64,000 nucleotides of DNA, taken from positions 122,698,001 to 122,762,000 of the forward strand of contig NC_073377.1 of assembly GCF_028641065.1 (NCBI RefSeq), given 5' to 3'. The position numbers and the translations under genes are program-made. This document shows, one piece after another, positions 2,770 through 33,051 of this stretch; position 1 is the first letter of the stretch; each line of letters opens with the position of its first letter. Below the pieces are notes generated by a model. It was given only the letters and a program-made list of their open reading frames with translations. It had not been told where the DNA came from and ran no database searches. This DNA is from Leucoraja erinacea. Its lineage: Eukaryota.

Positions 2770-3360
2770 TGATCTTTGCTCTGCAGCTCCTCAATGCAGG
2801 AGGGAGCTCCTCTCCCGGCAGGTGACGTCACGGACAGCGCCCAGCCAATGGGCGACGTGGACGGGGGCAGGTGGTGGCGGTCGTTGGACGGCTGCTCGGT
2901 GTCATGGTGTTGTCTTGCTCCGCTTACGGCTGCAAGAACCGGTATGACAAGGATCGCGGCACTTCTTTCCACAGGTAGGCAGGCAGTGGGCCCTGGCTAG
3001 TGGGTTCCGTGGAGGGAGCGAGTTTGCTGCGGCTTTGTGCCCGCAGAGCCTCGGCCGGCGATCCAGAAGCCTTGCGCTGGCTGGCGGGCGGGCGGGCTAG
3101 GCCGCTCCTTGAGCGCAGGGAGGGAGGGAGCTGAACGAGCCGGGTTGTGGGCGATCGAGAGGTGAGGTGGGAAGAGTTGGTCAGGGGAGGAAACTCGGAA
3201 GAAGAGGTGAGGCGGGCAAGGGTTTGCAAGAGAGCGGGATGGGGTGGGTGACGGACTCAGCAATAGTCAGGAAGAGAGTGTGTATGGCTGGATGGGGGTA
3301 GACACAAAATGTTGGAGTAACTCAGCGGGGAGAGAAGCATAGGCGAGGGCCTCGGGGCGG
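2770..3360 (+). promoter_or_regulatory. THAP1 CpG-island promoter with full CRE (TGACGTCA 2823-2830) and CCAAT box (2845-2849)
   Basis: CpG/GC-rich island around exon 1; motifs read directly from the sequence. Confidence 0.7.
2904..2974 (+). CDS. THAP1: THAP1 coding exon 1 (THAP zinc finger N-terminal half)
   Basis: ATG at 2904 gives [23 protein letters not shown](R), close to vertebrate THAP1 [24 protein letters not shown]. 71 nt, donor AG|gtaggc at 2975, inside a CpG island. Confidence 0.95.
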
Positions 3361-3584
3361 TGGAAAGGGACCTACAATGTTGAATGAGGATGAAATTAGA
3401 AAAAAAAGACCAGTGGTCTCTAAGTAAAACAAAAACTAGGTGGGGGTGGATTAGAATGTGTTGAACTGCAGAACTTCCATAATGTTAAGTGTAGGAAGGA
3501 ACTGCAGATGCTGGTTTAAACCGAAGAAAGACAAAAAACACTGAAGTAACTTAGTGGGTCAGACAGCATCCCAAAGAGAAATTG

Positions 3585-4655
3585 GGATGGCTTCCACTAT
3601 AAACCCACTGACTCCCATGGCTATCTGGACTACACTTCTTCCCACCCTGCTTCCTGTAAGGACTCCACTCCCAATTCCTCCGCCTACGTCGCATCTGCTC
3701 CCAGGATGAGGTGTTCTACACCAGGGCATCTGAAATGTCCTAATTCTTCAGGGAACGGGGGTTCCCCTCCTCCAACATAGATGAGGCTCGCACCAGGGTC
3801 TCTCCCATAGCCCGCAACAATGCTCTCTCTCCCCATCCCCGCACTCGCAACAAGGGCAGAGTGTCCCTAGTCCTCGCCTTTCACTCCACCAGCTGTCACA
3901 TACAACAAATAATCCTCCGGCATTTTCGCCACCTCCAACGTGACCCCACCACTCGCCACATCTTCCCATCTCCCCCCATGTGTGCCTTCCACAAAGACCG
4001 CTCCCTCCGGTCAATTCTTCCCTCCCCTCCCGTACCACCCCCTCCCCGGGCACTTTCCGTTGCAACCGCAAGAAATGTAACACCTGTCCCTTTACCTCCC
4101 CCCTCGACTCCATTCAAGGACCCAAGCAGTTGTTCCAGGTGCGACAGAGGTTCACCTGTATCTCCTCCAACCTTATCTACTGCATCCGCTGCTCTAGATG
4201 TCAGCTGATTTACATCGGTGAGACCAAGCGGAGGTTGGGCGATCGTTTCGCCGAACACCTCCGCTCGGTCCGCAAGAACCTACCTGACCTCCCGGTGGCT
4301 CAGCACTTCAACTCCCCCTCCCACTCCGAATCCGACCTCTCTGTCCTGGGTCTCCTCCATGGCCAGAGCGAGCAACACCGGAAATTGGAGGAACAGCACC
4401 TTGGGGAGTCTGCAGCCTGCGGGCTTGAACATTGAATTCTCCCAATTTTGTTAACCCTTGCTGTCTCCTCCCCTTAGCCCTCGGGCTGTCTCATCCCATC
4501 CCCCAACCCTCGGGCTCCTCCTCCTCCTTTTTCCTTCCCTATCCCCGCCACCCCCTATCCATCTGAAGAAGGGTTTCGGCCCGAAACGGTGCCTATTTCC
4601 TTCGGTCCATAGATGCTGCTGCACCCGCTGAGTTTCTCCAGCTTTTTTGTGTACA
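3585..4655 (+). mobile_element. Penelope-like element 3' part (RT thumb, Cys-rich linker, GIY-YIG endonuclease, pLTR), decayed, in THAP1 intron 1
   Basis: YKPTDSHGYLDYTSSHP. ORF 3980-4435 CNRKKCNTC...NLIYCIRCSRCQLIYIGETKRRLGDRFAEH...VAQHFN. pLTR with CTGAAGAAGG..CCGAAAC at 4563. Confidence 0.9.
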
Positions 4656-5139
4656 TCTCAAAGAGAAATCCATTTTCTCCAGAGATGATGTCTGACTGCT
4701 GTTATTTCAGCTTTTTTCGGTCTATTTTCCAAAATGTTAACATCGCAGATTTCTGTTATGGGCAGTATTTTATGTTTATTCATAATTCTAATGCTTTTAA
4801 ACAGTTTTCTTCCCTTTCCTGGTCACTGACTAATTTCTTGCTATGCTTTGTGATGAATCTTCACAAGGGTTGTAGATGTTGATAGGCCTGTGTTTATAAT
4901 CTAATGTACAATGAGGAAATCCCCAAATCCTAGAATTGTAATGAGAGAGACAGCCCTAATATTGATGGCAATTTACATTTTGTCCTGTCTGACAAGATGG
5001 TACCTGAGCTAATCCTTCCAACCAGTAAGGTAAATTAACATATTAAAGGCTCTATAAATTCCTGAACTCTGGTGACGTGCCATGTGAAAAATAAATAGAA
5101 AACATTCATACTTAGAGTAATGGTAGACTAGTTTAACAA

Positions 5140-5710
5140 AGCTACAGCCGTGTGGAGTCTTTGGAAAGGGTACAAAGGAGGTTTACCAGAATGATACCTG
5201 GAATAGGGGGGATGTCTGAAGAAGGGTCTTGACCCGAAATGTCACCCATTCCTGCTCACCAGTGATGCTCCCTGTCCCGCTGAGTTACTCCAACATTTTG
5301 TGTCTATCCTGGATTAAGGGGTATTAGCTACATGGAGAAGTTGGACAGACTCTGGAATGTTGGAGGTTTCGGGGAGACCTGATAGAAGTATATACAATTA
5401 TGAGAGGCGTAGATAGGCTAGACAGTCAGAATCTCTTCTCAGGATGGAAAAATCAAATGCTAGAGGGCATAGCTTTAAGGTGAAAGGGGCAAAGTTTAAA
5501 GGAGATGTGCAGAACAAGTTTTTTTACACACGGTGGTGACTGCCTGGGGTTGTTGGTTGAAGCATTTAAAAGACTTGGATAGGCATATAGATATGCAGGG
5601 AATGGAGGGATATGCGTTATGTGCAGGTAGATAGGTGATGGTCTTGGAATCATGTTCAGCGCAGACATTGTGAGCCAAAGTGCTCTTGTGCTGTACTCTT
5701 CTATGTTCTA
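5140..5710 (+). mobile_element. CR1-type LINE 3' fragment with a nested Penelope pLTR (about 5213-5308)
   Basis: QRRFTRMIPG / RGDLIEVY / RGHSFKV-type CR1 3' coding remnants, TCTATGTTCTA tail. Confidence 0.75.
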
Positions 5711-5903
5711 CTAATAACTGGAATAGACATAATGTGCTTTGTAAATTTGCATCATTTGGACTCTTGCCTGCATTTTGATGTCATCGGGAAAGCATGAGTG
5801 TCTGGAAGAATGGTGTCAATCCAACTGGAAATACCCAATTTTATTGTTAAATGTCCAAGTGCAGCTCTTCTCTCTAATAGTATTTTTAAAACCTGATTTG
5901 AAG

Positions 5904-6105
5904 GTTTCCTCTGAAGCGACCAGAGCTCTGTAAGAAGTGGTTGGCTGCAGTAAGGAGAAGGAATTTTATACCCACCAAAAACAGCAATTTGTGCTCAGAA
6001 CATTTCACTCTGGACTGTTTTAGAAAGAACTGTAACAATAAAATACTGGAAGAAAATGCCGTGCCATCCATATTCTGTTTTACCCGACCAAATCAACAAC
6101 CAAAG
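5904..6105 (+). CDS. THAP1: THAP1 coding exon 2 (C2CH finger completion, AVPSIF box)
   Basis: Acceptor tttgaag|G. Translates [57 protein letters not shown]...PK. Donor AAG|gtaac. Phases fit (71+202=273 nt). Confidence 0.95.
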
Positions 6106-7094
6106 GTAACTTTTGTGTTACTCATTTACAATGCATAAGTATAACAGTTATACATAAGTATATTAATGTGCCTAATTCAAAATAAAACCCGATCATTTCA
6201 ATTGAATAATTAAGATACTATTCTGTTATTCAATAGCATCTTTGGAGAGAGTACACCTTGATTGATTGTCAGTCATGTGTGGGTGAGGAAGAGATCATTT
6301 TCATTTTGAAGTATGTTAGTTTTTTAGATTTACAGTGAACATCTCTTTAGCATTGCAGTGTTACACTGCACTGGGAAACAAGTAGCCTTGTTCTCCAGGT
6401 GTTTAAGAAATAACTGCAGATGCTGGTAAATCGAAGATAGACACAAAATGCTGGAGTAACTCAGATGGTGAGGCAGCATCTATGGAGAGAAGGGAAATTG
6501 AGTATTAAGGTTCAAAGGATTCAAAGGTATTTTATTGTCATGTGATATGCAAATTACCATACAGTAATATGTATGTAACATATGTATGGTAATTCGCATA
6601 TCACTGTACCTTAATTGGTACACGTAACAATAAAAGACCTTTGAAACCTTTGAAACTTAATACTCATACCAACTGCCCAGGGGAGATATCAGGTGCTGTT
6701 CCTCCAATTTGCCCCATTCTGACAGTGGAGGAGGGAAGTGTGAAGAAGGGTCTTGACCCGAAACTTCGCCAATTCCTTCTCTCCGTTGATGCTGCTTCAC
6801 CAGCTGAGTTACTCCAGTATTTTGAGTCTACCTTGTTTCCAGGTAATTGGGTAACTAGCTAGAACTTGTTAATTGATATAAGGTAACACCTGGAAATATA
6901 AAACTGATCCCAATTACAGGAACAGTGCTTTTATTAAGCAGTGTTCTAAGTGGCAGCACCAATGTGTGGACTTGGGAAAGCAAGGGGCTCCAGTGAGGTA
7001 AGAGCAACAATTGGAGTTTAATATTCTGACATTAAATACAAAAATGAATTTCACTCGACCTCGGTACATGTGACATGAAGTACCATTAAACCAT

Positions 7095-7660
7095 GGGATA
7101 CTGAGTTGGATGATCAGCCATGATCATATTGAATGGCGGTGCAGCCTAATTCTGCTCCTATCACATGACAATTATGGTATGTTAGCTTTCATAGCAAAAA
7201 GATTTGAGTATAGGAGCACTGCAGTTGTACAGGGTCTTGGTGAGACCACACCTGGAGTATTGCGTACAGTTTTGGTCTCCAAATCTGAGGAAGGACATTA
7301 TTGCCATAGAGGGAGTGCAGAGAAGGTTCATCAGACTGATTCCTGGGATGTCAGGACTTTCATATGAAGAAAGACTGGATAGACTCGGCTTATACTCGCT
7401 AGAATTTAGGAGATTGAGGGGGGATCTTATAGAAACTTACAAAATGCTTAAGGGATTGGACAGGCTAGATGCAGGAAGATTGTTCCCGATGTTGGGGAAG
7501 TCCAGGACAAGGGGTCACAGCTTAAGGATAAGGGGGAAATCCTTTAAGACCGAGTAGAGAGAAACATTTTTCACACAGAGAGTGGTGAATCTCTGGAACT
7601 CTCTGCCACGAAGGGATCCGAGAAGGCCTATTCCTGCACCTATTTTCTAAGTATCTATGA
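7095..7660 (+). mobile_element. CR1/HER1-like LINE 3' fragment
   Basis: ORF 7204-7557 LYRVLVRPHLEYCVQFWSP...LEFRRLRGDLIETYK...TRGHSLRI, the typical CR1 ORF2 C-terminus. Confidence 0.9.
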
Positions 7661-9255
7661 CGTTATGAGGCCGAATAAGTTGGGAGAGATTCTTTCTCTA
7701 GCCCCAATGAGCTGTTCTTAATGATTAGGGGTGCATATGCAACACAATGCTAAATTGTCCCCTATTACCATTTATACTCCCTACCTTCCCTGCACCTTTA
7801 CTTTAACCCATTGGTTCAGATCCTATATTCTCCTCTAATAAAAATCAATAGACTAGGCATGTAGTGAGGATTGTTCATAGCACGAGCAAGACCGCAATAA
7901 TGACCAGATTGAGTCCTAATCTGCAGAATATTTGGAATGGATTTGAATTCTCTTTGACTTGATTATTGCTCAAAGAATCTGTTTACATTTTGGCTCAAGT
8001 AGTTTGCTTTTCTGGAGTTATAATGTATCTGTCACGTATTAATCTTTCAGATAATTGGTTGAATATAATATAATTTAAATAACCATCCATTTCTGTGTAT
8101 TTGGGCAAATCTGCAAAAGAAGCACTTCAAGCTTTTTTTTCCCTAATGTTGACGACCAGGTAACATTTATCGAAGTTCGTTTCGTCATTGCAATATTTGG
8201 GGTTTATTATTGTACGTCTAGCAATAAAGAATCAATGTAGATGCATTTTCTATCAATATAGAAGGAAATGTTCTGTAATGCAAGACTGTTTACAAACTAA
8301 AGGTGATTTATTTATAACTAACGATATACACATCTGGTAGATGTCTCAATCCGAACAATTAGACACAATTGATGGAAAAACTCTGTATAGTATTTTATAA
8401 ATCTTATATTTGGGGCACATGCTTTAACCATAGGGAATTCTTACCCCTGTGAGGTGAAATGAAAATTAAAGAACTAGGGGAAAACACAAAGCTGTTTATT
8501 TACCTGCTCCATTCAAGCCTGATGTGGTATTTTTGTTTTAAATACATCAACACTTCTTACTATTGGTTTCCTGTAACATGATATAGCCAGGATCTTAAAT
8601 GTGCTGCCCAAATATCAAGGGAATCCCTTTATAACCTGTGTGATTCCTGCTAATTCTGTATCTGTCACCAATCTGGTTTATGAGAGAAATTGGCATTCTT
8701 TTAAATCCTAATTGCTACAATGGATAAAGATTTGTGAATGATGGGTGCTGAATCTTTTCTTAGGATAGCATAAATTTGCAAATTTTTGATGCCTGGGTTT
8801 GTGGTTTTCTGCATCGGTTTGGTCATTGTATTGAATAGAAGCACCACATGACCTCATTGGAGTTTTATTAAAGTCAAATTTTGTTTTACTTAACATAATT
8901 AAAAGCAGAAAATAATATTTTCTGTTTTAAATCAGCAGCTCAGGCAATATCTGTGGAAAGAGAAACAGTTATTGATTCAAGTCTGAAATCCTTCAATTCT
9001 GAATTGATCCCAACATCTTTGGCTTTCTATCAAATTATCTCAAATTTCATTGTTAAATGAAACTTAACAATGAACTTTTCTTTTTGTCAGAGTGCATATT
9101 ATATGATGTGCAGTATTTGCATTTTAAATCTTACTGAAATTATACTTTGGAAATGTTGGATTAGATGAATGATTGTGGGTTCTAGGAATGACTTTGTTAC
9201 AGCTTGTTAACTCTATTGAAATTGTATATTCTGAACTATTCATCACTTTTGATAG

Positions 9256-9591
9256 AAGTTAGAAACGGCATTACCAAGAGCCCAACCTCAGGCAACAGAG
9301 GAAATTATGGAGGAATCCAAATTGAATCAAAAGCATGGACTCCTAACTGTTTTTGACCATAGCTATAGTGTTCGAGATGCGTGCTTACAAAAGAAAAAGA
9401 TTCAGCAGTTGGAGGAACAAAATGAGAAACTAAAGACGAAACTGAGATTCTTACAGCAGAAATCTCGCCGCCAAGAACAACGATTACAAAGAATGAAGAA
9501 GCTATTACAGGAACTTAATACACGAGAGATGTTACCACATAAAACCTGTGTGCTGTTAAATAACACTTTGTATGAATTAATTAAACTTTAA
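9256..9591 (+). CDS. THAP1: THAP1 coding exon 3 (HCF-1-binding motif DHSY and coiled coil)
   Basis: Acceptor ttttgatag|AAG in phase 0, in frame with ORF 9307-9591. DHSY (D/EHxY) motif is followed by a QQLEEQNEKLKTKL...RRQEQRL coiled coil and TAA stop. AATAAA at 9679 and 9732. Total protein 202 aa. Confidence 0.9.
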   Translation, partial: KLETALPRAQPQATEEIMEESKLNQKHGLLTVFDHSYSVRDACLQKKKIQQLEEQNEKLKTKLRFLQQKSRRQEQRLQRMKKLLQELNTREMLPHKTCVLLNNTLYELIKL

Positions 9592-16559: not shown

Positions 16560-16757
16560 AACCAGCGTCACCAGTTCCTTCCCACACACACAGCGTCAGC
16601 CGGGGGAGCGGGGTCCGGTTGCCGTGGAGATGTCGTGACGTTTCCGCGCGTAATGGGCGCGAGGATGTGCGTCAGCGAGCGGCGTTACGTCACGCCACGT
16701 TCCAGTGCGGAGCTCAGCGCTGACCGGCGGCGGCGGCGGCGAGTTTGTCGGCTTGTG
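16560..16757 (+). promoter_or_regulatory. CpG-island promoter of the Jun-like gene with clustered CRE/ATF half-sites
   Basis: CGTCA 16566 and 16594, TGACG 16636, TGCGTCA 16668, TTACGTCA 16685. Confidence 0.6.
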
Positions 16758-16974
16758 ATGGCGGCGCCTTTCTACCGGGACCACACGACCAGCAGCGGGC
16801 ACCTGGAAGCGGCGCCGATGGACAAGAAGAGCGCGGCGGCGGCGGCGGATCGGCGCCCCCCGTCTCAGGAGCTGAACGGCGGCTCCGTGCTGACGCTGCC
16901 GGAGTCGGGTGCCCAGGCCGACAGGCCCGGAAGCAGGCGGGAAGCCGAGGGCCTCGTCCATCCACTGGCGAAAG
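16758..16974 (+). CDS. Jun-family AP-1 transcription factor, coding exon 1
   Basis: MAAPFYRDH resembles Jun N-termini (METPFY, MEQPFY, METTFY). Good Kozak gtgATGG in a CpG island. Donor AAAG|gtgaga in phase 1 matches the downstream exons. Confidence 0.8.
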
Positions 16975-17695
16975 GTGAGAGCGGCTTCCAGCTCCCGACC
17001 GAGCGGCCGGCCGGCCCGCGCTGTAGACGCTGCTTGGTGGCCGGTGTTCTGCGCTGGGCTCCGAGTATCCGGAGCCACATGCCCGCTGGTGCTTCCTTCC
17101 CCTGCTAACAACTCTGCGACCACTCACTCCCCTCCCCTCCCTTCCCTGCTTTCCATCAAAGATCTTATAGCAGAGCTCATTGCTTCCTCCCCGACACATT
17201 CGCGTGTGGCTTGAAGAAGAATTTGATGCAACGGTGAGGATGCGCACGGAAACGATCATTGAGGCTTTAAAGAAAACTGGAGCGATGTGGATCGAGGCAG
17301 CAGCAGGTCACCACCGCCAACATATGATTATAACAAAAGTCAAAAAGATCGCAGATGCTGGAAGTCTGGAATGAAAGCACATTTTGGAAACACTCAGTAG
17401 ATAAATGGTGGTAACTTTTCAAGTCGAAGAGCAGTTTTCGAAGCTTTCAGGACGTCCCATTTATATTTGTTTCCACCCGAGTGATCGTTGCACTTGACTA
17501 TCCCACGCCATCATGAGATAATTTACTGAATTTACTATTTAAAGAGTTGATGGTGAGGAGCGTGATTTCCCCGCCCCCCTCCCCCCAACTTGTACTTTTT
17601 ATTTCTAACCTCCACTTTTCTCTCAATTCAAGCGTGCTTTTTTATATAATTAAAATTAGTTTGTATTTTTAAAATATATTTATTACAATTTGCAG

Positions 17696-17749
17696 GTAGA
17701 AGATTCTTGCTTGGAGGCAGAGACGAGATTGAAAATCCGCACCCTTATG
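17696..17749 (+). CDS. Jun-family gene, 54-nt coding exon 2 (predicted)
   Basis: Acceptor tttgcag| and donor ATG|gtaagt. Symmetric phase 1-1, open (GRRFLLGGRDEIENPHPY), loosely at the position of the Jun QFL...EQEGF segment. It could be skipped without a frameshift. Confidence 0.6.
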
Positions 17750-18497
17750 GTAAGTCTTCACACTAATGATGCGTTTAAGTGCACAGTACTTTAAAGTGGG
17801 AGTTCTAAGGATATGCGAGGTGGTATTTAGGTTTGCAGAATAAAAGGCTGGTGGGTGGAATACCTTTTTTTGCGGGTGGGGGTGGGGGTAATTCGGTAGA
17901 GATTGGTGATGTCATTGACATGGACATAAAGAGAACATATATAAAGTATGGTAGAGGAACTTTAGAGGTCATTATAGAGATATCATTTAACTGATATACT
18001 GTATATCAAGGTTATTGGAATATCTGTCTTTATATCTAAGGCAGGAGTTTAAAGTTAGACATTATGTAGCAATTATGATTCACCAATTCAATATTGTGAA
18101 ATTTAGAATGTGGACAATGTCTTGATGGTTTTGAATAATAAGTTAATGGATGATATAATTAATAACTTAAAATTATTATTGGATTTGTTTGGGTATGTAG
18201 AGATGTATGTTTGAATATGTGCTGTGAATCTTTATAATCTATCACTGGATGCTTAGTCAGTAGTATATTTAAGATTAAAAAATAGAGATTTTTGTAGTTT
18301 TGAGACATGCTTATCTCAGGCAATTTGGTCTCTTGATAGTGTGAAGGAAAAAATGCAGCTTTTCTATTAATGATAGATGATTAATGTGTCAAATTGTAAG
18401 GATTTTTGTAGTTGTGTAGAATGTGGGCTGAATGACTCATCCATGTATTGCTGCTTAAAGTGAGTAATTTGATAACTTGGATTTTCTGTCTTTAAAG

Positions 18498-19111
18498 CAT
18501 TGCAGGATTTGACCAAACAGAACCAACATGTGGTCTTGGCGGGAGCCCCATGCTCAGCTCATACCTCCACCGCAATCTATCACGGCAGTCTGCATTTGGC
18601 CCAGTCGAAAGCAGATGTCCCTGTCTATACCAACCTTGGCAATTACAATCCAAGCTTGCCCAACACAGGCTCTGAAAGTTATCCCACTGGCCATGTTCCC
18701 TATGCAAGCCCAGCATCATTACAACATCATTTATCAGCTTTGGCACAGCTCATGTGTCCAAAATATCAAGAAGAGCCCCAGACAGTACCAGAAGTAGGCC
18801 CACTAAGTGAATCTCCACCACTCTCCCCATTAGAAGATGGAGGGCAGCATATCAAAGCTGAAAAGAAGAGACAGAGAAATCGCATTGCAGCATCAAATTG
18901 TCGAAGAAGGAAATTAGAGAGAATTGCAAGACTGGAAGATAAAGTAAAGACCCTAAAATCAGAGAACTTTGAGTTAACCTCAACGGCAAGTGTACTACGT
19001 GAGCAAGTGGTGCATCTCAAACATAAAGTGATGAATCATGTCAATAATGGATGTCAGGTAGTGCTTGCATCCTCTAGCCTCCTAAAGCCAGAAGAAAACG
19101 GCAGCATTTAA
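18498..19111 (+). CDS. Jun-family gene, coding exon 3 ([23 protein letters not shown], bZIP)
   Basis: Acceptor ttttctgtctttaaag|CA in phase 1. Jun-diagnostic segments [64 protein letters not shown]...[21 protein letters not shown]. Intact to TAA. Confidence 0.95.
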
Positions 19112-20879
19112 AATATCCTGCTTAATATAGCTTGATCAAAAAATTAGTTCTGCGGAGAAGTGCTGAATTGGATGCTCATCTCGACTTTTGTATTTCCAAT
19201 AAGCTGCTAAACATAATCTGAAGTTATTCTGCAGAAATGCTTTGAGCAGCTACTTCAAATGCTTCATTTTGAAGAAAGAAAATGGAAAGAATACCTGCAG
19301 CCCAGTGTACCTCCTCTTGATGATTGTTCTAGTTATACAGGTGTAGTGAAAGGACTGTAACAGTTCACCTATTTTCTGGAAATTTTTCTTTGTGTAAACT
19401 TACTTTCTTCGCAGTTTAAAATAAAATAAGTCACCTTTGAGGAAAGCCTCTTTGCTTACCTTGGAAGGTATCTGCTGAAAATATTTAAATTGAAATAATT
19501 AATTTTAATTTCCTTTTCCAAAAAAGTAAAGATAGAAGTAGAAAGCTTAAGTTTGGATTTGGATTTTGTTTTTTTTTAAAGAATAGTTTTGATATACAAT
19601 TATATTTGTGGAGATCACAAAAGTTTAATCCCATTCAATACACTGGATCAAATGTTTTTAAGTGTGGTAAATAATTGCAATGGTTTATTCCTCGCAAAGA
19701 TTGTCAACTCATTTGTTATACTTTAAAGAGCTTAAAGGAATTAATTTCACATTATTTGCAATTGTTTTGGCTAAATATATTACATGAGTTTGTATTGCTT
19801 TTGTAAGTTACTGTATGTTGAACATGCTGATCATTGGTGTTAAAATGGTACATTGCTGGAGAGGATTGCTTAACAGTCTGTGATGGTCAGAGTCCTACCA
19901 CATTCCTTATAATGTGCATCTTATTTCTAGGTGTTGGATGTGGTTCAATCTCCCCGAGTTGTGGGTTCAAGCTTCAATCACAGCCTTAGTCTGTAATTTA
20001 GAAGTCCTGAAGGAATGCTTCAGAGTTTGAGGTGTCTTTGAATTGGCATAACACTTTCTGCCTTGTGCCTTGACATTTTGTGGACACCTTGCAAATTAGG
20101 TGGCATTTTCAGTGTCCCACACAAGCATTTAAAGTTGATAATCTGGTTATTTATTTCATTTATATTTGTTGAAACATGCTGCAGTCAAATTTCCTGCTTG
20201 TTTCGTTTAATTGTGGTGGAACTTTAAAAGCACCCGTGGCTGGCTATAAAGCACAAATAGACATGCCAAAATTGTGAAAGGTGCTATAGAAATACAGCTT
20301 CCTTATGGTCTTGGACTTGTACATCATTGCATTGCGTCCTTTTCTGAAACTTATTATTTAGTTATTTGTTCAATGGTGGTACTTGCTAATTTAATTTTAA
20401 TGTTAATTAAATGTTTGAATATTACTGTATGTTTACTTGCATTTCCATTGGGATGGGCTGAAGCTCTAGAGCAATTTCAATCATTTAAAATTGAGATATT
20501 CAACCAGTTCTGAAAATAGTGTTCCTTTTACAAGATAAATCTGTATCAGTTACTTACAAAAACACCATGAAGGCAGGCCATCATTGCTTACTCTGCCCAG
20601 GCACTGGGTTTGAAAGGCAAAAAAAGAGGCTTATATCTATTTATATTCGAGATAAAACTTTGGTAAATTCAAATAAACAGTTTGTTAACAATTTCGGTTT
20701 ATCCTTGCATTGTTTTATATTTGCTAATATTCATAATTGTGCCAAAGAATAATTGTAAAAATAATGTACTTCTGCACTGATTGTTTGCAAAGGAATCTTT
20801 GCATAAGAAATTTGCACACATACAAGCATTACCGTTGCATTCCAACTGAAAGTGCCAGGATATTCCCTATACAATCTGT

Positions 20880-23472: not shown

Positions 23473-23742
23473 TCACCTATTTAATCTTTGAGTAACTGCC
23501 TCTCGATACATTATAGAAATATAGATGAGAAGTAGAAAAATAACAAAAAGGTCATCCAGAAATCCTAGAATTCCAAAGAAAGCCTCGGGAATAAAGTCCA
23601 GTGGAGATACTAAATAGAACAAGGCACCAGCCAGGCAGAGGAAAATTCGTATTCGAAACATCCAGAAAAGCCCGCTGATGGAAAACAATTCTGTGAAGGC
23701 ATGACGAAGTAGTGTGGGCAAATCCATTATTCGATCCATAAG
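23473..23742 (-). CDS. RNF170: RNF170 last coding exon (C-terminal TM region)
   Basis: [16 protein letters not shown]...[10 protein letters not shown]...[44 protein letters not shown]; acceptor cctgcag|. Six exons total 789 nt = 262 aa. Confidence 0.96.
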
Positions 23743-25142
23743 CTGCAGGACAAATGTGATTACTTAGTACCATGCAATAATGATTGATTTACAAGAATAT
23801 GTACAAGTCCACAATTGTTTAAAAAAAATGGCATTATAACAGCTCAAAAACAGCAAAATGAATGACTCACTTGAAAGTAAATGTAAGGAGACAATTTTTC
23901 GTTTGTAAATATTACACCATTGAAAGGAATGAAATGACCTGTTTAAAACTGGTTGTGTAAATCAACTCTATTTTTGAATCTATTTGGATGAAATATTTAT
24001 TTTTAAAATAGGTTTTGAATGACCTAGGAACATTCACAGAGTTGAAGCATGCTTTTGAGTTGTAAGGTTTGTTACAACGTTCAATGGATTTTACCAAAGT
24101 AGAATGAGAGGAGAGAACATGGAAAATTATTTTCGGTTAAATCCTTACTATATAGCTCAATTATTTTGGGATAATGGTAAAGGGGCCTCATTATCACTCC
24201 CCACATAATTTTGTAACAACACTGATTAATACCCATTTTGAGGCACCAAGAGAATAAAGTGATCACTGGTGACGCAAAATGCTCGGAAAGATCAAGTTTG
24301 GTTAAGGTGAGGTGCAAAAACCAGAATGGTGGTTGGTGGAAGTCTTATTTCAATCTTTTCAACAAAAAAATCTTTCACATTTGAGGCAGAAGGTTTTTTT
24401 TGTCAGTCTGTTCAGGGACACCACCTTGTAAAGTGAAATAGGGATTCAGCAAATTTCACATCGATTGAAGTAGTAGAAAAAAATCGAAATCTTATAAACA
24501 TAGAAAATAGGTGCAGGAGTAGGATATTCAGCCCTTCGAGCCAGCACCACCATTCAATATGATCATGGCTGATCATCCAGAATCAGTACTCTGTTCCTGC
24601 TTTCTCCCCATATCCCTTGACTTTGTTAACCCTAAGAGCTATAGCTAACTCATTCTTGAATACGTCAACTTCCATGAAGCATATTGTGTTCATTCACATG
24701 GATGAAAAACAAAACAGCTGTATATATGGAAATAAAAATAAACTGCGTGAACTGTAAATTTGAAATAACAGAAAATGATGGAAATACTCAGCATGTTGTA
24801 TGTGGGGGAAAGATAAACAATGTTTTAGGTTACACATCCTTTGTCTGATGAAAGGTCTCTGATCAGAAACAGAGTTAGAGTCATAGAGTACGGAAACAGG
24901 AACTTTATCCGAGCAGGAGTTAGAGTGGGATAATTCTTAAAAACAATATCAGCTGTTCATGCCAACCAGTGAATAATCTATATGATAATACAGGCAAAAC
25001 CGATTGAATTGATTTGTGGAAAAATTGCAATTCCAAGAATGCCCAGGAAAACTCAAAATAGAAGAAATCATTTTAGAACTCAGAATAACTGAAGACCCTT
25101 AAATATGAAGAGAAAATATTATAAAAGTTCCAATGTTTGCGC

Positions 25143-25752
25143 ATAGATACATAGAAAATTGGGGCTGGAATAGGCCATTCGGCCCTTCTAGCCAGCACCG
25201 CCATGCAATGTGATCATGGCTAATCATCCACAATCAGTACCCCGTTCCAGTCTTCTCTCCATATCCCATTATTCCGCTAGCCCTAAGAGCTCTATCAAAC
25301 TTCCTTTTGAATGCATCCAGTGAATCGGCCTCCAATGCCTACTGCGGCATTGAATTCCACAAATTCACAACTCTGGGTGAAAAAGTATTTCATCTCAGTT
25401 CTAAATGGCCCACCCCTTATTCTTAAACAGTGGCCCCTGGTTCTGGACTCCCTCAACATCGTGAACATGTTTCCTGCATCCAGCTTATCCAATCCCTGAA
25501 TAATTTAATATGTTTCTATAAGATTCCCTCATCCTTCTAAATTTCAGTGAATACAAGCCCAGTCGTTCCATTCTTTCATCATGACAGTCACGCCATCCTG
25601 GGAATTAGCCTCGTGAACCTACGCTGTACTCCCTCAATAGCAAGAATGTCCTTCCTCAAAGTAGGAGACTTTGTCTGATGAAAGGTGCAAAGTACTGCAC
25701 ACAATACTCCAGGTGTGGTCTCACCAGGGCCCTGTACAACTGCAGAAGGACC
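25143..25752 (-). mobile_element. CR1/HER1-like LINE 3' fragment
   Basis: Minus-strand ORF2 C-terminus (LDAGNMF..ESRTRGH.LRIRG) and tail. Confidence 0.85.
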
Positions 25753-25756
25753 TGTT

Positions 25757-27025
25757 TATGGATTTATGAAAGGTAAATCATGTCTGAAAAATCTTATAGA
25801 ATTTTTCGAGGATGTAACTAGTAGATTGGATAAGGGAGAACCAGTGGATGTGTTATATCTGGACTTTCAGAAGGCTTTCGACAAGGTCCCACATAAGAGA
25901 TCAGTATACAAACTTAAAGCACACAGTATTTTGGGTTCAGTATTGATGTGGATAAAGAACTGGCTGGCAGACAGGAAGCAAAGAGTAGGAGTAAACGGGT
26001 CCTTTTCAGAATGGCAGGCAGTGACAAGTGGGGTACCGCAAGGCTCAGTGCTGGGATCCCAGCTATTTACAATATATATTGATGATTTGGACGAGGGAAT
26101 TGTATGCAACATCTCAAGGTTTGCGGATGACACGAAGCTGGGGGGCAGTATTAGCTGTGAGGAGGATGCTAGGAGGCTGCAAGGTGACTTGGATAGGCTG
26201 GGTGAGTGGGCAAATGCATTGCAGATGCAGTATAATGTGGATAAATGTGACGTTATCCACTTTGGTGGCAAAAACAGAAAAGTTATTATTATCTGAATGG
26301 TGGCCGATTAGCAAAAGGGGAGATGCAACGAGACCTGGGTGTCATGGCACACCAGTCATTGAAAGAAGGCATGCAGGCAGTTTAGAAAGGGAATGGTATG
26401 TTAGCATTCATAGCAAACAGATTTGAGTATAGGAGCAGGGAGGTTCTACTGAAGTTGTACAGGGTCTTGGTGAGACCACACCTGGAGTATTGCGTACAGT
26501 TTTGGTCTCCTAATCTGAGTAAATACATTCTTGCCATAGAGGGAGTACAGAGAAGGTTCACCAGACTGATTCCTGGGATGTCAGGACTTTCATATGAAGA
26601 ACGACTTGATAGACTCGGCTTGTACTCGCTAGAATTTAGAAGATTGAGGCGGGATCTTTTAGAAGCTTACAAAATTCTTAAGGGGTTGGACAGGCTAAAT
26701 GCAGGAAGATTGTTCCCGATGTTGGGGAAGTCCAGAACAAGGGGGTCACAGTTTAAGGATAAGGCGGAAATCTTTTAGGACCGAGATGAGAAAAACATTT
26801 TTCACACAGAGAGTGGTGAATCTCTGGAATTCTCTGCCACAGAAGGTAGTTGAGGCCAGTTCATTGGCTATATTTAAGAGAGATTTAGATGTGGCTAAAG
26901 GGATTAGGGGTTATGGAGAGAAGGCAGGTACAGGATACTGAGTGGATGATCAGCCATGACCATATTGGATGGCGGTGCAGGCTCGAAGGGCCGAATGGCC
27001 TACCCCTGCACCTATTTTCTATGTT
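25757..27025 (+). mobile_element. CR1/HER1-like LINE, RT domain to 3' end, frameshifted
   Basis: GFMKGKSCL.NL, YLDFQKAFDKVPH, GVPQGSVLG, FADDTKL, LVRPHLEYCVQFWSP; tail CCTATTTTCTATGTTT. Confidence 0.93.
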
Positions 27026-27277
27026 TACTCCTATACTCAAATCCTCTCGTTATGAGGGCCAACTTTCCATTAGCTTTGGAAGGCAAAGCTAGACTTCAGA
27101 ATAGGGGAGATTAACAACTATTTGAATTAACTATGTTACTTAAGACATGGAAAAAGTCTTGAGTGTAAAATATTCATCCAAAATTAAAGTGTGAAATATT
27201 GCTAACAAACATTTCTTTCCTAGTTATGTTGACATGCATTAGTTTCTCATTATGCTTTACATCACAGGCATACTTAC

Positions 27278-27388
27278 AGATCTGGGCTGGCCAGAAAATC
27301 TTCTGTTATAATCATTTACATCTTGAATAACTTGTATAGACTCTGGGTGTTGCTCATTCAGTGTGAACAATGGAAACAACAAGGTAAT
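27278..27388 (-). CDS. RNF170: RNF170 coding exon 5
   Basis: ITLLFPLFTLNEQHPESIQVIQDVNDYNRRFSGQPRS; aaacag| ... TCT|gtaag; 111 nt. Confidence 0.95.
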
Positions 27389-29789
27389 CTGTTTACAAGA
27401 TAATTAAAATAAAGAGTGACATTTTCCTTGTATATAATCAAAGCATGCATTGCAATCAATCTATTAATTTGTCATTAACATTTATTTAAAACTCAAATTT
27501 TGCCCTTGTGACACAATGTTTTGAAAATCCCAAGTTATAGTGTTGTTCACAATCATATGAATTAACTACATTGATTGTGATGGGACATTTTAAATTATCA
27601 ATGTTTCAAATAAAACAAAACCCTGGTCATACGTGTACCTAACAGACAAAGTTCAGAACTTCCAAGGGGCCATTTGATTGACTCTGGCTAAACATGGATC
27701 TGGGGGTTATAGAGCAAGATTATTGGAGATAGCAAATTATGCATTGCATCCACAGAGGTAATCGAGGGTCAGCTACCAAGGATCTGCTAGTAATAGCAAA
27801 CATACAGTTTGCAACAAAAAATGACCAAATGTCTCCCTCAATTTAACTTTTATTCTTCAGAACTGCCAGGCAGTCAGTTGGACTGGACCCTCTGATATAC
27901 TACACATTACTGATTAAAAAAGATGCAAATATAAATATATTTGGCCAATTCCCAAGTCATCCAATTAAAATTTTCGAAGTGGCAGGCAGGAAAATGCAGG
28001 CAAACATTCAAGTCATTGGTAGAGTGCATTAATGCAATAGTGCCACATGAAGCAGCTATATTTAGCACTATTAAGATACACCAAGCAATTTGAGACATTT
28101 ACATAGCCTTACTAATAAGTATGAGCAATTTAAATTCCAAAATCTGATGAATTTTGAAAATTAATATTTTTGATACTAGTCTGGTATTTTATCAGTGTTT
28201 TAATATGTATACAAACATTAGGTCTTAGTGATTAACTATACAAAAAATTGTATTGACAAGGATAATAATATTAACCTAAAACCACAAAATTGGCACAAAT
28301 AACCTGTGAATAACACAGGGTATAGATTTGTATAATGACAAAGACATAATTTGTAGTAATAGCACAAACCAAATGGCATAACCAGTAAATATTAGAGCCA
28401 AATAGAATAATGCAGATATGAACTGAGAATATTGGAGACAAATTGTTTAAATACTTTAGATGTTATCTCCAAATAAATATATAAACGTTTTAAATAATTT
28501 GTAACCTGTATGAATTAAAGAAAAAATCAACATGGAAATTTGAAACAAAAAAAATGTTGATAATAAATGGTGATTCATTATGAGTGAAGTGCAAGGACAT
28601 GTTATAATATTTCAGGTGGGTCTCAAGTTCTGCAAATACTGGTAAATACAAATTAACTTTAACAGTATACATTGATTGTTGTTATAAACAGAGAAGCAAT
28701 TCAAAGGATTATGACAGAAAAGTCAGATTGGGAATGGGAGGAGGACTTAAAGTGCTAAGCAACCGGGAGATGTTAGGACATGGCCAGCAGAGATTTTAAG
28801 GAACTTGTTTATGCACATAAAATGAGGAAATCCAGCATGAGAATATTTGAGTCTAGCAATAAAAAGACACGGATAACTGTATCAGCAAAAGAGCCAAATA
28901 ATTAGGTGACATTGCAGAGTTCCTTAGTCTTGGCATAGATTTGAGGAACTATACATAACTTGGGATCAAATTTGACACTTGACCATCTGGTTTAATTTTA
29001 AAGTTCCCTTGAAGGATGGAGTTTATGATGATGGCAAAAGATTAATAATATATCCAATGCCCTAAGATGACAGAATATATCCAATGCCAAATGATAGAAG
29101 TATATAAAATATGAGATGCGTTGCTGGGTAAACAGAACAGTTTTCCCCATGGTAGAAATGGCAAAGACTCGAGGGGTAGAGACTTCAAGCTGAGAGGGGC
29201 AAAGTTTAAAAGAGATGTGTGGGCCAAGTTTTTATTTTACAGGGTGGTGGGTGCCTGTAATGAGCTGCCTGGGGTGGAGGCAGATACAATAGTGGCGTTT
29301 TAGAGGCTTTGAGGGAAATGCATCTTGTGCAAGTACATGAGATTAGTTTATCTTGGCATCATGTTTGGAATAGACAAAAAATGTTTTTTTTTGGTTCCAA
29401 GATTCCAGCAATCTTTTGTGTTTCCAGTGTTCCAATGGAAGGGGTACTGAAAACTTAATAGTGGACGACGAGATGGCAGATAAATTAAAGTTATTTTGCA
29501 CGAATCTTCTCTACAGAGGATATAATCCCAGAAATAGCTGAAAATTGAGAGTTTGGAGGGAGGTATTCAGGAAAATGACAAATAGTAGCAAAGTAATATT
29601 GAATAAACCACGGGAACTTGTGCTGCCTATTTTTATGTCCCGATGGACTTCAGCCCGTGGTTTTAAAATGAGAGGTGGTTGAATTTTCCAAAATTCCTAG
29701 ATTTGAGTAGGTTTGAAAATGCAGTGTAACTCTTTGTTCAAAACGGGGAGATGAAAGCATGAAATGTCATGCTTAACATCTATCATATA

Positions 29790-30348
29790 TCTCTACACCT
29801 ATAAAAGTCTCTTGTGTGCGTCCCTGTGTGTATGTGTCCGTGTTTGTTTTGTAACTTCCTAAAAACGCTATGCGCTAGTGTTTTAATTTTTACATATTCT
29901 AACTCACATTTTTCCTGTCTACGCTGTACTCGGGTTCACTTACGATTTCATCCTATATTTCAGAAGTTATCGATGAATAAAGTTTAAAAAATAAGTAAAA
30001 AAACGGTTCTCACAGACGGCCCTTTTTCCAGAAGCTTCAAGTGATGTCACAATGCCTCTCACAGTGCACCAATCACAATGGGCTCTCAAGCTGGCTGCCG
30101 ACTGCCCCAATAACATCACAATGGGACGTTGCCAACGGTAAAGAGGTTGCTGCGTCTCTTCCAATATCTGAAGGGGCTGCTCATCAAGTTCTGGTTGCAT
30201 TTTGGTCCCATGATCCTGGTGTTTGGGCACAAGGCCGGTAGTGGGGAAGGCCGATCGGGGGGTGGGATCTCGGCTTGCTTCACATTTCATGCTACATTTC
30301 ATGCTATATTCCCCCCCCCCCCCCCCCCCCAGGTCCCACTTGGCCTAG
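29790..30348 (+). mobile_element. Non-autonomous Helitron-like element
   Basis: A|TCTCTACACCTATAAAAG ... GGTCCCACTTGGCCTAG|T; no TSD. Confidence 0.6.
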
Positions 30349-30384
30349 TAGAATATAAAAGGCAACCATAAGATTCAATTTGAT

Positions 30385-30638
30385 TTAGTTTAGAGATACA
30401 GCATGGAAACAGGTCCTTCAGTCCACCGTCCACACCGAACATCGACCTCCAGTTGACAATAGTTCTATGTCACAATACTTTTCCATCCACTCCCTACACT
30501 TTTTACAGATACCAGTTAATCTATATATCTGCACGATTGTGGTACGCGCAAACTCCAAACAGATAGCACCCAAGGTCAGGATCAAACCCGTGTTTCTGGC
30601 GCTGTGTGGCAGCAGCTCTATCAGTTGTGCCACTGTGC
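30385..30638 (-). mobile_element. V-SINE/HE1-like SINE
   Basis: Minus strand has an A/B-box-like head (GCACAGTGGCACAACTGATAGAGCTGCTGCC..GGTTTGATCCTGACC) and a CR1-type tail. Confidence 0.7.
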
Positions 30639-30717
30639 TGCTTTTTAAAAATTAAAAACAGGTTTTCAAATGAGGAGCAATATTTTCATAGATGTGAGGG
30701 AGCAGAGAATGATGATT

Positions 30718-30977
30718 ATACGGTGGCACAGTGGCGCTGTGATAGAGTTGCTGCCTTACATCGCCAGAAACCCAGGTTTGATCCCGACTACAGGAGCTTT
30801 TTGTATGTTCTCCCTGTGACCACATGAGTTTCCTCCCACATTCCAGAGATGTGCAAGTTTGCCGGTTAACCGATTTCTGTAAATTGTCCCTTGTATGCAG
30901 AATAGAGCTACTGTATTGGTGATTGCTGGTCAGCACGGGCTCAGTGAGCTGAAGGGCCTGTTCCCACACTGTATCTC
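30718..30977 (+). mobile_element. V-SINE/HE1-like SINE
   Basis: Head GGCACAGTGGCGC..GATAGAGTTGCTGCC..GGTTTGATCCCG, core TTCTCCCTGTGACC, tail GAAGGGCCTGTT. Confidence 0.75.
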
Positions 30978-31044
30978 AGAAAAACTGAAAATAGAACGAG
31001 CTGCCACAGGAAGTGACAGAAGCAGGTCCAATTAGGTGGGTTAG

Positions 31045-31840
31045 TGGTGGCGCCTAACGGCAGCGGCTCGACTACAGTCATCAGTCTTTTTTTATTTTTG
31101 TCTTGTTAAATGTATGTCTTGAGTTAGTTTTTATTATTTTTTTTAGCTGTGTATATGTGGGGGGGCTGTGGGGGAAACCGTTTTAAATCTCTTCCCTGTG
31201 TGGGGACCAGACTATTCCCTGTCGGGTCTCGGATGTCGTTGGGCCTAACATCGTGGAGCCGGCGGCGACCTCCGGCCAGGACTAACCTGAGGGCTCCAGT
31301 TGCAGAGCCTGCGGAACTGACATCGCGGAGCTGGCCAACTTCGGAGCAGGAAGAACTGTGGTGGCGCGCGGCTGTGACCCGACTTTTGGAGTTCGGAGGC
31401 ACCGGCCGCAGACCCAGTGGACGGGAACATCGGGAGCTCGCAGGTCCCTGGTGGGAGACCGCTTTTCCGAGCTCCGCAACGGCGACTTCTCCCGCTGGAA
31501 TCGCAGGTTTAAGGACATGGAGCCGGGGCCTAACATCGCCCGGCGTGGCTTAAACGGCCTCAGGACTTACCATCGCCCGCCGGGGGCTTTAACATCGGAG
31601 CCCCAGTTCGCCTCGACACTGCAGTTGGACTACTGAACCACGGGAGAAGGAACAAAGGGAAGACTTTGCCTTCCATCTCAGTGAGGAGATGTTGGAGACT
31701 CACTGTGATGGATGTTTATGTAAACTGTGTTAAGTGTGGGTCTTGGATTGTTTTGTAATGTAAAAAACTGTAGAAATTATATTTCGTTCAAACCTAGGTT
31801 TGAATGACAATAAATTGCATTCTATTCTATTCTATTCTAA
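31045..31840 (+). mobile_element. GC-rich non-coding retroelement with (ATTCT)n tail
   Basis: Starts GTGGTGGCGCC and ends TGACAATAAATTGC(ATTCT)4. Related to 1356-1816 and 14988-15757. Confidence 0.65.
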
Positions 31841-32106
31841 TTAGTGTTTAAAAAGCATTTAAACAGGTACTTGGATAGGAAAGGCTTAAAATGAAATAAG
31901 CCTAATGCAGAAAAGTAGGATTAGTGTTGATAAGCATCAGTCACCAAGGATGAGTTGTACTGTATTCTCCATGATTCCAAGATGGCATATACATGGCACT
32001 TAGAAAGGTTCATTGTATTCAAACATAGTTTTGTGAAAGGATGTGACCACTTAATAATAGTATTTGAAGTAGTAAAATGAGCTACTAATAAATGGATGTA
32101 TTGTAA

Positions 32107-33051
32107 TCTATATTACTAAAAGTCTGATCTTGACCGCTTTTGGCCCACTGTGCTGCAATTTCCGAGAGAACGCTGCCACCTACGGCCGTCATTTTTGGCC
32201 ACATCGCTCAGAGCCCACGTCTCCCTAACTGGACCAGAGGATTTTTCTCATCGATGACAAATCAGAGAGATATTAATGTTTCTAAAAAAGAAAATCACCA
32301 TTCTCTCTGCTGCCCCTGCTGGAGGGAGGGGGAGGGACTTTAAAACCAGGAAGTGGTGTACTTCGCTCGGTCTCTGCAATATGGAGGTCACGTCTCTCTG
32401 AGCTCTGAATAACACTGAACACATGTCTACTCAACTGTGAGTGCACTTAATGTGGTTTGAAAATGAAAATATGGTTGGTTTGAAGTAAAAAGGCACTGCC
32501 TGCAAATGATTGTTTGGGGGGGGTTTGGGTTGATGTAAAAAGGCACTCTCTCTCTCCCCTCCTCTCTCTCCCCTCCTCTCTCTCTCTCTCCCTCCTCTCT
32601 CTCTCTATCTCCCCCCTCTCCCCCCTATTCCCCCCCCTCTCTCTCTCTCCCCTCTTTCTCTCCCTCTCTCCCCTCTTCCCCCACCCTTCCCCCCTCCTTC
32701 ACCACCCCCCTTCTCCCCCCCCCCCCCCCCCCCCCCCTTTTTTCCTCCCCCCTGGTCCCCGCCCCCCTATCTTTCCCTTCCCCCTCCCCTCCCCCCCTCC
32801 CCCTCTACCCCCGCCCCCCCCCCCCCTTCTAGATGTGACTGCAAGTTGGGGGCTATGCATCAGTAGATAGGGTGGTTATGGGGTGAAAGGAGCAAATTAA
32901 TAATATTAATGTTGTTATATCAAGGGGGGTAATTAGCATATGTGTGGGGGGGGGAGGGGGAGATAGTTAGTGTGTGTGATGCTGCATGCCGCCTCCCCCC
33001 CCACGACCTCACGTTGGGGGAACAGACCCAACGGGTCTGCACTTGGTCTAG
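32107..33051 (+). mobile_element. Non-autonomous Helitron
   Basis: A|TCTATATTACTAAAAG start, subterminal hairpin CAGACCC-AAC-GGGTCTG (33023-33039), end CTAG|T. No TSD. Internal CT/C microsatellite. Confidence 0.8.

What the first reader, a model, noticed from the sequence alone, without database searches (positions are those of the whole stretch)
16758..19111. Intron-containing Jun-family gene between THAP1 and RNF170: candidate fourth 2R Jun ohnolog
Seen: an intact Jun-type protein of about 294 aa (276 aa if exon 2 is skipped) assembles from three exons with canonical, phase-compatible splice sites (16758-16974, 17696-17749, 18498-19111). Established: mammalian JUN, JUNB and JUND are intronless, and human THAP1-RNF170-HOOK3 has no Jun gene. 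Human JUNB lies next to HOOK2 and JUN lies about 1 Mb from HOOK1. Inference: a Jun next to HOOK3 completes the Jun-Hook paralogon, so this would be a fourth ohnolog kept in cartilaginous fish and lost in mammals, uniquely retaining or gaining introns. A teleost gene annotated 'june' may be the same lineage; I cannot confirm that here.
Basis: partly seen in the sequence, partly recalled or inferred. Interest (0 to 1): 0.85.

Follow-up and report, generated by a model that had tools for sequence, protein, structure and literature searches.

The report
Shark JunE gained introns and exon
This skate gene is a spliced fourth Jun (AP-1) transcription factor, most likely the shark-and-ray form of the fish gene junE, and it likely gained two introns and a new small exon while losing the JNK control sites that regulate human c-Jun.

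Summary
Three exons give a 294-aa Jun protein, and both GT-AG joints appear in 3 of 4 runs laid. The genome (a skate) has JUN, JUNB and JUND elsewhere, each in one open frame. Trees put this gene, with orthologs from sharks, rays and chimaeras, beside the gene NCBI already names junE in teleosts, gar, bowfin, bichir and coelacanth. Nesting inside JUN, JUNB or JUND is rejected (AU p<=0.001). The split (JUN,JUNB)|(JUND,JUNE) matches the published pairing of 2R chromosomes. So the fourth ohnolog is real, but it is neither unnamed nor confined to cartilaginous fish. No outgroup was obtained, and junE synteny in bony fish was not testable. What looks undescribed: the one teleost junE contig found has no coding intron, so the introns were likely gained in cartilaginous fish. 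They flank a new 18-21-aa exon, conserved from chimaera to skate, that splits the Jun FVKAL motif and is skipped in some shark models. The N-terminus has eroded: no JNK docking motif or T91/T93, and no Ser/Thr-Pro site at all in this skate, while the bZIP is intact. Likely role: a JNK-independent AP-1 subunit that damps signalling (inferred, untested).

The parts
16566..16692 (+). Cluster of five CRE/ATF half-sites in the CpG-rich promoter or 5' region
   Evidence: 5 sites in the 218 nt before the ATG against 0.8 in dinucleotide shuffles, p about 0.001; region chosen after looking. Function untested.
16758..16974 (+). Coding exon 1: degenerate Jun N-terminus, with no JNK docking motif and no Ser/Thr-Pro
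   Evidence: No Pfam hit on its own. A contig covers it from 16745.
16975..17695 (+). Intron 1, 721 nt, phase 1, inside the Ala codon of the conserved FVKAL motif
   Evidence: GT-AG joint in 3 of 4 runs; alignment.
17696..17749 (+). Exon 2: 54-nt cassette, 18 aa, not found in any other Jun; a second frame is also open
   Evidence: Included in 3 of 3 runs with coverage. Present in 17 of 17 cartilaginous-fish rows. Skipped in RefSeq X2 models of two sharks. Single copy in G000. Second frame.
17750..18497 (+). Intron 2, 748 nt, phase 1; a second possible acceptor lies 8 nt into exon 3 (exon start 18506)
18498..19111 (+). Coding exon 3: C-terminal half of the Jun domain, SPPLSP degron-like motif (18812-18829), bZIP (18848-19033), 17-aa junE-type tail, stop
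   Evidence: Pfam PF03957 and PF00170; best solved-structure matches are JunD and c-Jun bZIPs; motif tally.
19112..20680 (+). 3' UTR, about 1.5 kb; AATAAA at 20672 is the likely poly(A) signal
   Evidence: Contigs reach 20630. ATTTA count 8 against 4.7 expected, p 0.09, not significant.
2904..9591 (+). THAP1, upstream neighbour on the same strand; exons 2904-2974, 5904-6105 and about 9256-9591
   Evidence: tblastn with a catshark THAP domain, 96-97% identical; boundaries.
23473..62900 (-). RNF170, convergent downstream neighbour; last exon 23473-about 23760, RING exons near 37350 and 48150; 5' end approximate
   Evidence: DUF1232 hit; RING motifs.
63190..63234 (+). HOOK3 first coding exon; the gene continues past the window
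   Evidence: downstream HOOK_N exons on G000 C1 match human HOOK3 best.

Best explanation
This is a spliced Jun-family bZIP gene that is most likely the cartilaginous-fish ortholog of junE, the fourth Jun copy from the two vertebrate genome duplications; it likely gained two introns and a new 18-aa exon, and is predicted to act as a JNK-independent AP-1 subunit that damps signalling. Shown: three-exon splicing; an intact basic region and zipper; three other single-frame Jun genes in the genome; grouping with junE in unrooted trees; loss of the JNK docking motif, T91/T93 and, in this skate, every N-terminal Ser/Thr-Pro. Inferred: orthology with junE (no outgroup, no bony-fish synteny); intron gain in the cartilaginous-fish stem, followed or accompanied by birth of exon 2; dimerising with Fos/ATF partners and binding AP-1/CRE sites through the conserved bZIP; weak, signal-independent activation, so that it competes with c-Jun for partners and sites; control by transcription (CRE sites), exon-2 splicing and a GSK3/FBW7-type degron (degron role recalled, not from a call) rather than by JNK.
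For: Tree of 51 proteins, 303 columns, LG+C20+F+G4: the 12 cartilaginous-fish rows (100/100) and 11 junE rows (100/99) lie on one side of a 97/91 branch; JUN+JUNB 100/97. AU test on 23 rows and 18 topologies: (this+junE),JUND,(JUN+JUNB) is best, p 0.99; 17 of 17 others rejected under JTT and 16 of 17 under LG. A tree from the C-terminal 105 columns alone keeps the split at 92/94 and 95/95. Shared 17-residue tail after GCQ in 30 of 31 cartilaginous rows and 62 of 122 junE rows, against 9-10 residues in all JUN, JUNB and JUND rows. Complementary range: G000 has exactly four Jun hits and no separate junE. The pairing matches SI Table 3 of PMC10115646 (linkage group L: skate chr10 and chr39 paired, chr3/chicken Z and chr29 paired). 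HOOK copies sit on C1, C10 and C39, PDE4 on C1, C10, C29 and C39. CHRNB3 and CHRNA6, the human neighbours of THAP1 (PMC4527799), sit on C3, tying this block to the chicken-Z-type chromosome. A teleost junE genomic contig has one 349-aa open frame across FVKAL. Exon 1 is 36% identical between batoids and sharks, against 71% for exon 2, 97% for the bZIP and 74% for the same region of JUNB. JNK acts on c-Jun through a D-motif and S63, S73, T91, T93, and S63A/S73A lowers reporter activity (PMC9576782, passages).
Against: The trees are unrooted and both grouped branches are long, so long-branch attraction is possible. Under LG the tree (junE+JUND),this,(JUN+JUNB) is not rejected (p 0.055). NFI, KANK, MAST and JAK have their fourth copy on C3, not C1, so a move of the block between C1 and C3 must be assumed. 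Intron gain rests on one teleost contig. My docking-motif pattern is also absent from 122 of 122 bony-fish junE rows and from 43 of 73 JUND rows, so that loss is not special to sharks. All 9 shark rows keep one or two Ser-Pro sites in exon 1, as do 3 of 6 batoids and both chimaeras. The basic region has a fixed change (SNC for SKC in 31 of 31 rows) of unknown effect on DNA binding. No functional data exist here.
Confidence: 0.62

Rival explanations
1. Same gene history (junE ortholog, gained introns), but the protein is an ordinary AP-1 activator: the eroded N-terminus and the new exon supply signal-independent activation, or remaining Ser-Pro sites are still used through a dimer partner.
For: Exon 2 is conserved as well as the non-bZIP part of exon 3 (71% and 75% between batoids and sharks) and is hydrophobic and acidic. 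Sharks keep one or two Ser-Pro sites. c-Jun lacking all four sites is weakened, not dead (PMC9576782 passages).
Against: This skate protein has no Ser/Thr-Pro in exon 1 and has lost the first 117 of 232 Pfam Jun positions. Exon 2 interrupts the most conserved motif of the region.
Confidence: 0.22
2. This is an older, fifth Jun lineage that kept ancestral introns, while the four intronless Juns come from a retrocopy; junE was lost in cartilaginous fish and this gene was lost in bony fish.
For: No outgroup fixes the root. It is the only Jun with coding introns. It sits on C1 while most fourth paralogs sit on C3. One topology separating it from junE survives under LG.
Against: It needs two complementary losses. 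It shares the junE tail length, sits next to HOOK3 as JUN sits 0.58 Mb from HOOK1, and fills the one empty 2R slot.
Confidence: 0.08
3. It is the junE ortholog, but intron 1 is old (junE stem or earlier) and was lost in teleosts; only exon 2 is new.
For: Only one teleost contig was seen. Protein sequences cannot show an intron whose removal leaves FVKAL joined (122 of 122 junE rows).
Against: JUN, JUNB and JUND of the same genome and the teleost junE all lack it, so one gain is the shortest path.
Confidence: 0.06
4. It is a cartilaginous-fish-only duplicate of JUN, JUNB or JUND that moved here.
For: Sources label the orthologs inconsistently (Jun-like, jun-D, JunB-like, JunD-like), and JunD proteins are the best non-ortholog hits.
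Against: Nesting beside the cartilaginous-fish JUND, JUNB or JUN is rejected at AU p<=0.001 under both models.
Confidence: 0.02

Closest known systems
[quoted passage not shown]
   Same: Groups with it in all trees. Same 17-aa tail in gar, bichir, coelacanth and lungfish. No c-Jun-type docking motif. No named tetrapod among the 120 best hits of the lungfish protein.
   Different: Two coding introns and an extra exon, against one open frame in the teleost contig. T91/T93-type motif in 0 of 31 rows against 114 of 122; S73-type motif in 2 of 31 against 104 of 122; SNC against SKC in the basic region.
JUN, JUNB and JUND
   Same: Pfam Jun plus bZIP_1. DNA-contact residues N, A, A, C, R and the zipper heptad kept. 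[S/T]PPxSP motif in 31 of 31 rows.
   Different: These three are single open frames in G000 and keep the JNK-site motifs; this gene does not.
N-terminally weakened or truncated AP-1 subunits: c-Jun S63A/S73A and 4A mutants (PMC9576782); TAM67 and JDP2 (recalled, no call)
   Same: Intact DNA binding and dimerising domain with little or no JNK-inducible activation.
   Different: This is a natural full-length paralog with a 200-aa N-terminal region and a conserved new exon; repressor-like behaviour is only inferred.
Ohnologs kept in fish and lost in mammals, such as CHRNB5, CHRNA8 and CHRNA11 (PMC6354393, passages)
   Same: Same pattern of a 2R copy missing in mammals; CHRNB5 lies on the same chicken-Z-type chromosome.
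   Different: Those keep the family's exon plan; this one changed it.

Membership tests
Jun family (AP-1) | Pfam Jun domain plus bZIP | tested here: met
   PF03957 46.4 bits (cut-off 26.7; only profile positions 118-232) and PF00170 63.3 bits.
Jun family (AP-1) | Basic-region DNA contacts and leucine heptad | tested here: met
   Alignment to JunD and c-Jun structures, E 4e-23 and 8e-22; one fixed K-to-N change.
Jun family (AP-1) | Dimerises with Fos/ATF and binds AP-1 or CRE sites | not tested
   Needs a bench assay; a predicted complex of a textbook pair would add little.
c-Jun-type JNK substrates | D-motif plus S63, S73, T91, T93 | tested here: not met
   Docking pattern 0 of 31, T91/T93 pattern 0 of 31, S73 pattern 2 of 31; no Ser/Thr-Pro in exon 1 of this skate. 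The patterns are my own, anchored on the skate JUN.
junE subfamily | One side of a supported branch with named junE | tested here: met
   97/91; AU best p 0.99; 92/94 on the C-terminus alone. Unrooted.
junE subfamily | Monophyly in a tree rooted with lamprey or invertebrate Jun | not testable with these tools
   No outgroup obtained: the representative search stayed busy; scans of viral and prokaryote contigs gave none.
junE subfamily | Same gene neighbours as bony-fish junE | not testable with these tools
2R ohnolog quartet | Four copies on four paralogous chromosomes | tested here: met
   Jun on C1, C10, C29, C39; PDE4 the same four; HOOK on three of them.
2R ohnolog quartet | Fourth copy on the expected chicken-Z-type chromosome (skate chr3 in PMC10115646 SI Table 3) | tested here: inconclusive
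   It is on C1; NFI, KANK, MAST, JAK, CHRNB3 and CHRNA6 are on C3. A split of the Z-type chromosome between C1 and C3 explains it but is inferred.
Intronless Jun genes | Single coding exon | tested here: not met
   Two spliced introns.

The most novel reading that the evidence does not exclude
Cartilaginous fish rebuilt the fourth Jun into a splice-regulated, JNK-independent brake on AP-1: intron gain in an ancestrally intronless immediate-early gene created a cassette exon that switches the activation region, and read-through splicing from THAP1 uses that exon in a second frame to make a THAP-bZIP chimera with two DNA-binding domains. The chimera exists as one catshark RefSeq model (P0011) and is frame-compatible in this skate.
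Probability: 0.15. Interest if true: 0.72.

Novelty: new variant of a known kind. Interest (0 to 1): 0.42.

Why it matters
It completes the Jun quartet: JUN+JUNB and JUND+JUNE pair as the 2R chromosomes predict, and the shark and ray genes now filed as Jun-like, jun-D or JunB-like can be named junE. It offers a dated case of intron gain and exon birth in a family known for lacking introns (mammalian state recalled; shown here for three skate genes and one teleost junE). That allows a test of whether lacking introns matters for fast induction, by comparing four paralogs in one animal. It also gives a natural series (bony-fish junE, chimaera, sharks, skates) in which JNK sites are lost step by step while the bZIP stays 97% conserved. 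The existence of a fourth Jun is not new.

Tried and rejected
Outgroup: the search of protein representatives never accepted a job. Scans with a Jun bZIP alignment gave one viral locus and one weak 451-nt contig, neither usable. RNA test of THAP1 read-through and exon skipping: the second lay was not carried out, so it is untested. treekit's own AU test did not finish; I ran IQ-TREE on 23 of the 51 rows with fixed within-group trees instead. Two Logan rows first labelled JUN fell inside JUNB and were left out of the smaller trees. RAD23 gave only two hits (C29, C39) and says nothing on C1 or C3. Exon 2 as a repeat-derived exon: no second copy found in G000 (the search skips common words). ATTTA enrichment in the 3' UTR is not significant. 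No Rfam family in the window. The Atlas search returned only Jun clusters by features and no useful structure match. No earlier finding of this scan was returned. Literature: 10 searches found no paper on junE evolution or shark Jun introns; 'june' appears only as a gene name in expression studies (PMC11955638, PMC12673963, passages; PMC12733183, listing only). The word also matches the month, and most subscription papers are not held. Two older papers on Jun gene structure were not held. PMC10507257 and PMC6389290 (passages) had nothing on Jun introns. The look-up of sequencing runs listed no holder on record as RNA.

Full report
Observation. Contigs of three runs from three studies join 16974 to 17696 and 17749 to 18498 and have no depth in the introns; a fourth run, raw RNA reads of another organism with about 6% read, had no depth on the coding exons. 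The tool only guesses that the three runs are RNA, but spliced contigs are hard to explain otherwise. Transcribed sequence runs from at least 16745 to 20630. Exon 2 is included in 14 of 15 listed members of the skate cluster, and the fifteenth starts downstream, so skipping is not shown in skate. RefSeq X2 models of two sharks skip it. THAP1 lies upstream on +, RNF170 downstream on -, and HOOK3 starts at 63190 on +. The organism is a skate: the nearest named proteins are from Leucoraja, Amblyraja and Rhinoraja, 95-100% identical, where the gene is already modelled as 'Jun-like' or 'AP-1-like'.

Family in this genome. A bZIP search of G000 scored 46 candidates and returned five matches: this gene, three other Jun genes on C10, C29 and C39, and one weak CNC-type hit. 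The three others are each one open frame of 318, 291 and 313 aa and fall with JUN, JUND and JUNB in the tree.

Relatives. Orthologs with the same extra peptide occur in sharks, rays and chimaeras under mixed names. Sources already name a gene junE in teleosts, gar, bowfin, bichir and coelacanth, and a lungfish protein groups with it. Among the 120 best of 2900 hits to the lungfish protein no named tetrapod appears, though many rows are unnamed; this fits loss in tetrapods but does not prove it.

Trees. With 51 proteins and 303 columns, the 12 cartilaginous-fish rows and the 11 junE rows lie on one side of a 97/91 branch, and JUN joins JUNB at 100/97. On 23 rows and 277 columns, 18 topologies were compared: (this+junE),JUND,(JUN+JUNB) is best (AU 0.99); all 17 others are rejected under JTT and 16 under LG, the survivor being (junE+JUND),this,(JUN+JUNB) at p 0.055; nesting in JUND, JUNB or JUN is rejected at p<=0.001. 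The C-terminal 105 columns alone, on 16 rows, give the same split at 92/94 and 95/95 but do not resolve JUN, JUNB and JUND among themselves. A 17-residue tail after GCQ is shared with junE and absent from the other three. All trees are unrooted and the two grouped branches are long.

Chromosomes. HOOK genes are on C1 (HOOK3), C10 (HOOK1, 0.58 Mb from JUN) and C39 (HOOK2 by elimination, about 6 Mb from JUNB); none was found on C29. PDE4 has copies on C1, C10, C29 and C39. NFI, KANK, MAST and JAK have copies on C3, C10, C29 and C39. SI Table 3 of PMC10115646 (passages and supplement rows read; two supplementary PDFs were too large to see and may bear on this) pairs skate chr10 with chr39 and chr3 (chicken Z) with chr29 for linkage group L. 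Reading contig numbers as those chromosomes, the tree's pairing is the expected one, and the empty slot is the Z-type chromosome. The gene is on C1, not C3. In human the order is CHRNB3, CHRNA6, THAP1, RNF170, HOOK3, with no Jun in the list (PMC4527799, passages), and in G000 the best matches to CHRNB3 and CHRNA6 are on C3. Chicken Z orthologs are also split over two chromosomes in gar (PMC6354393, passages). I infer that the Z-type chromosome is divided between C1 and C3 in skate.

Introns. One metagenome-collection contig of 4 kb carries a teleost-type junE in a single 349-aa frame that runs through FVKAL (1 of 89 pattern matches was confirmed). With JUN, JUNB and JUND also unbroken, one gain in cartilaginous fish is the shortest path. 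Intron 1 falls inside the Ala codon of FVKAL, and exon 2 adds 18 aa in sharks and rays and 21 aa in chimaeras at that point in 17 of 17 rows. How the introns arose is not resolved; exon 2 has no second copy in G000.

Protein. The bZIP matches JunD and c-Jun structures with DNA-contact and heptad residues kept, apart from SNC for SKC in 31 of 31 rows of 250 aa or more (many rows are near-identical skate sequences). Identity between batoids and sharks is 36% for exon 1, 71% for exon 2, 75% for the rest of exon 3 and 97% for the bZIP; the matching N-terminal part of JUNB is 74%. JNK controls c-Jun through a D-motif and S63, S73, T91 and T93 (PMC9576782, passages). By my patterns, the docking motif is absent from all junE-type rows (0 of 122 and 0 of 31), T91/T93 from all cartilaginous rows, and the S73 motif survives intact only in the two chimaeras. 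Looser counting finds one or two Ser-Pro sites in exon 1 of all 9 sharks, one in 3 of 6 batoids, and none in this skate. The SPPLSP motif is kept in 31 of 31. Five CRE half-sites lie in the 218 nt before the ATG (0.8 expected; region chosen after looking).

How it most likely works. Shown: spliced expression, intact bZIP, eroded JNK sites. Inferred: it pairs with Fos or ATF proteins and binds AP-1/CRE sites, but cannot be switched on by JNK, so it gives low constant activation and competes with c-Jun; its level is set by transcription, splicing and degradation. The main rival is an ordinary activator in which the new exon replaces lost function. SI Table 5 of PMC10115646 lists a gene whose symbol decodes as Jun-4 as differing between anterior and posterior pectoral fin (log2 1.44, adjusted p 4e-8); that it is this gene is a guess from gene-number neighbours.

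Read-through. A catshark RefSeq model joins the THAP1 THAP domain to exon 2 in another frame and re-enters exon 3 eight bases later. The same route is open and in frame here. It rests on one model in one species and was not tested with RNA.

Novelty. The fourth Jun is named in databases. Ten paper searches found no study of its evolution, of its shark ortholog or of these introns, but the library is partial and a GenBank record named 'JUN-3' from eel hints that someone has catalogued the paralogs. Verdict: new variant of a known kind, interest 0.42.

Noticed in passing
window 2904-6105, 17696-17749, 18506-19111; P0011: A catshark RefSeq isoform fuses the THAP1 THAP domain to the Jun exon 3 through exon 2 in a second frame; the same path is in frame in this skate.
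   Followed up: partly
L020:3001-3243: A 291-kb viral contig holds a Jun-type bZIP stretch, 73% identical. A fish herpesvirus with a captured JUNB gene is recalled, not checked.
   Followed up: no
P0121: A protein filed under the bacterium Kangiella spongicola is 92% identical to skate JUNB and clusters with ray JUNB proteins; likely contamination or mislabelling.
   Followed up: partly
P0272, P0358, P0360, P0331: X2 models of junE in carp-like fish and eel, and of this gene in Rhinoraja, start with another first exon or a later Met, suggesting upstream exons splice into the locus in several lineages.
   Followed up: no
G000 C3:31.10-31.22 Mb (L022-L024): Three neuronal nicotinic receptor genes in a row: beta3, alpha6 and a beta2/beta4-like gene that is probably CHRNB5, lost in mammals.
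   Followed up: partly
G000 C29:15.46 Mb and C39:0.74 Mb: RAD23-type exons were found on C29 and C39 only, none on C1 or C3; the C29 copy may be a paralog missing in mammals, or the search missed others.
   Followed up: no
window 16820-16850: A poly-Ala (GCG) tract in exon 1 varies in length among skate sequences, 3 to 6 Ala.
   Followed up: no
window 16000-16575 and elsewhere (e.g. 25682-26941, 44949-45491, 50452-52431): Repeat-derived DNA: a high-copy element just upstream of the gene draws very deep coverage; ORFs resembling LINE reverse transcriptase and Tc1 transposase fragments lie in the RNF170 introns (by eye).
   Followed up: no
L005 (G000 C7:21.0 Mb): A CNC-type (NFE2L-like) bZIP exon; its basic region has Asn where this Jun has the SKC-to-SNC change.
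   Followed up: no
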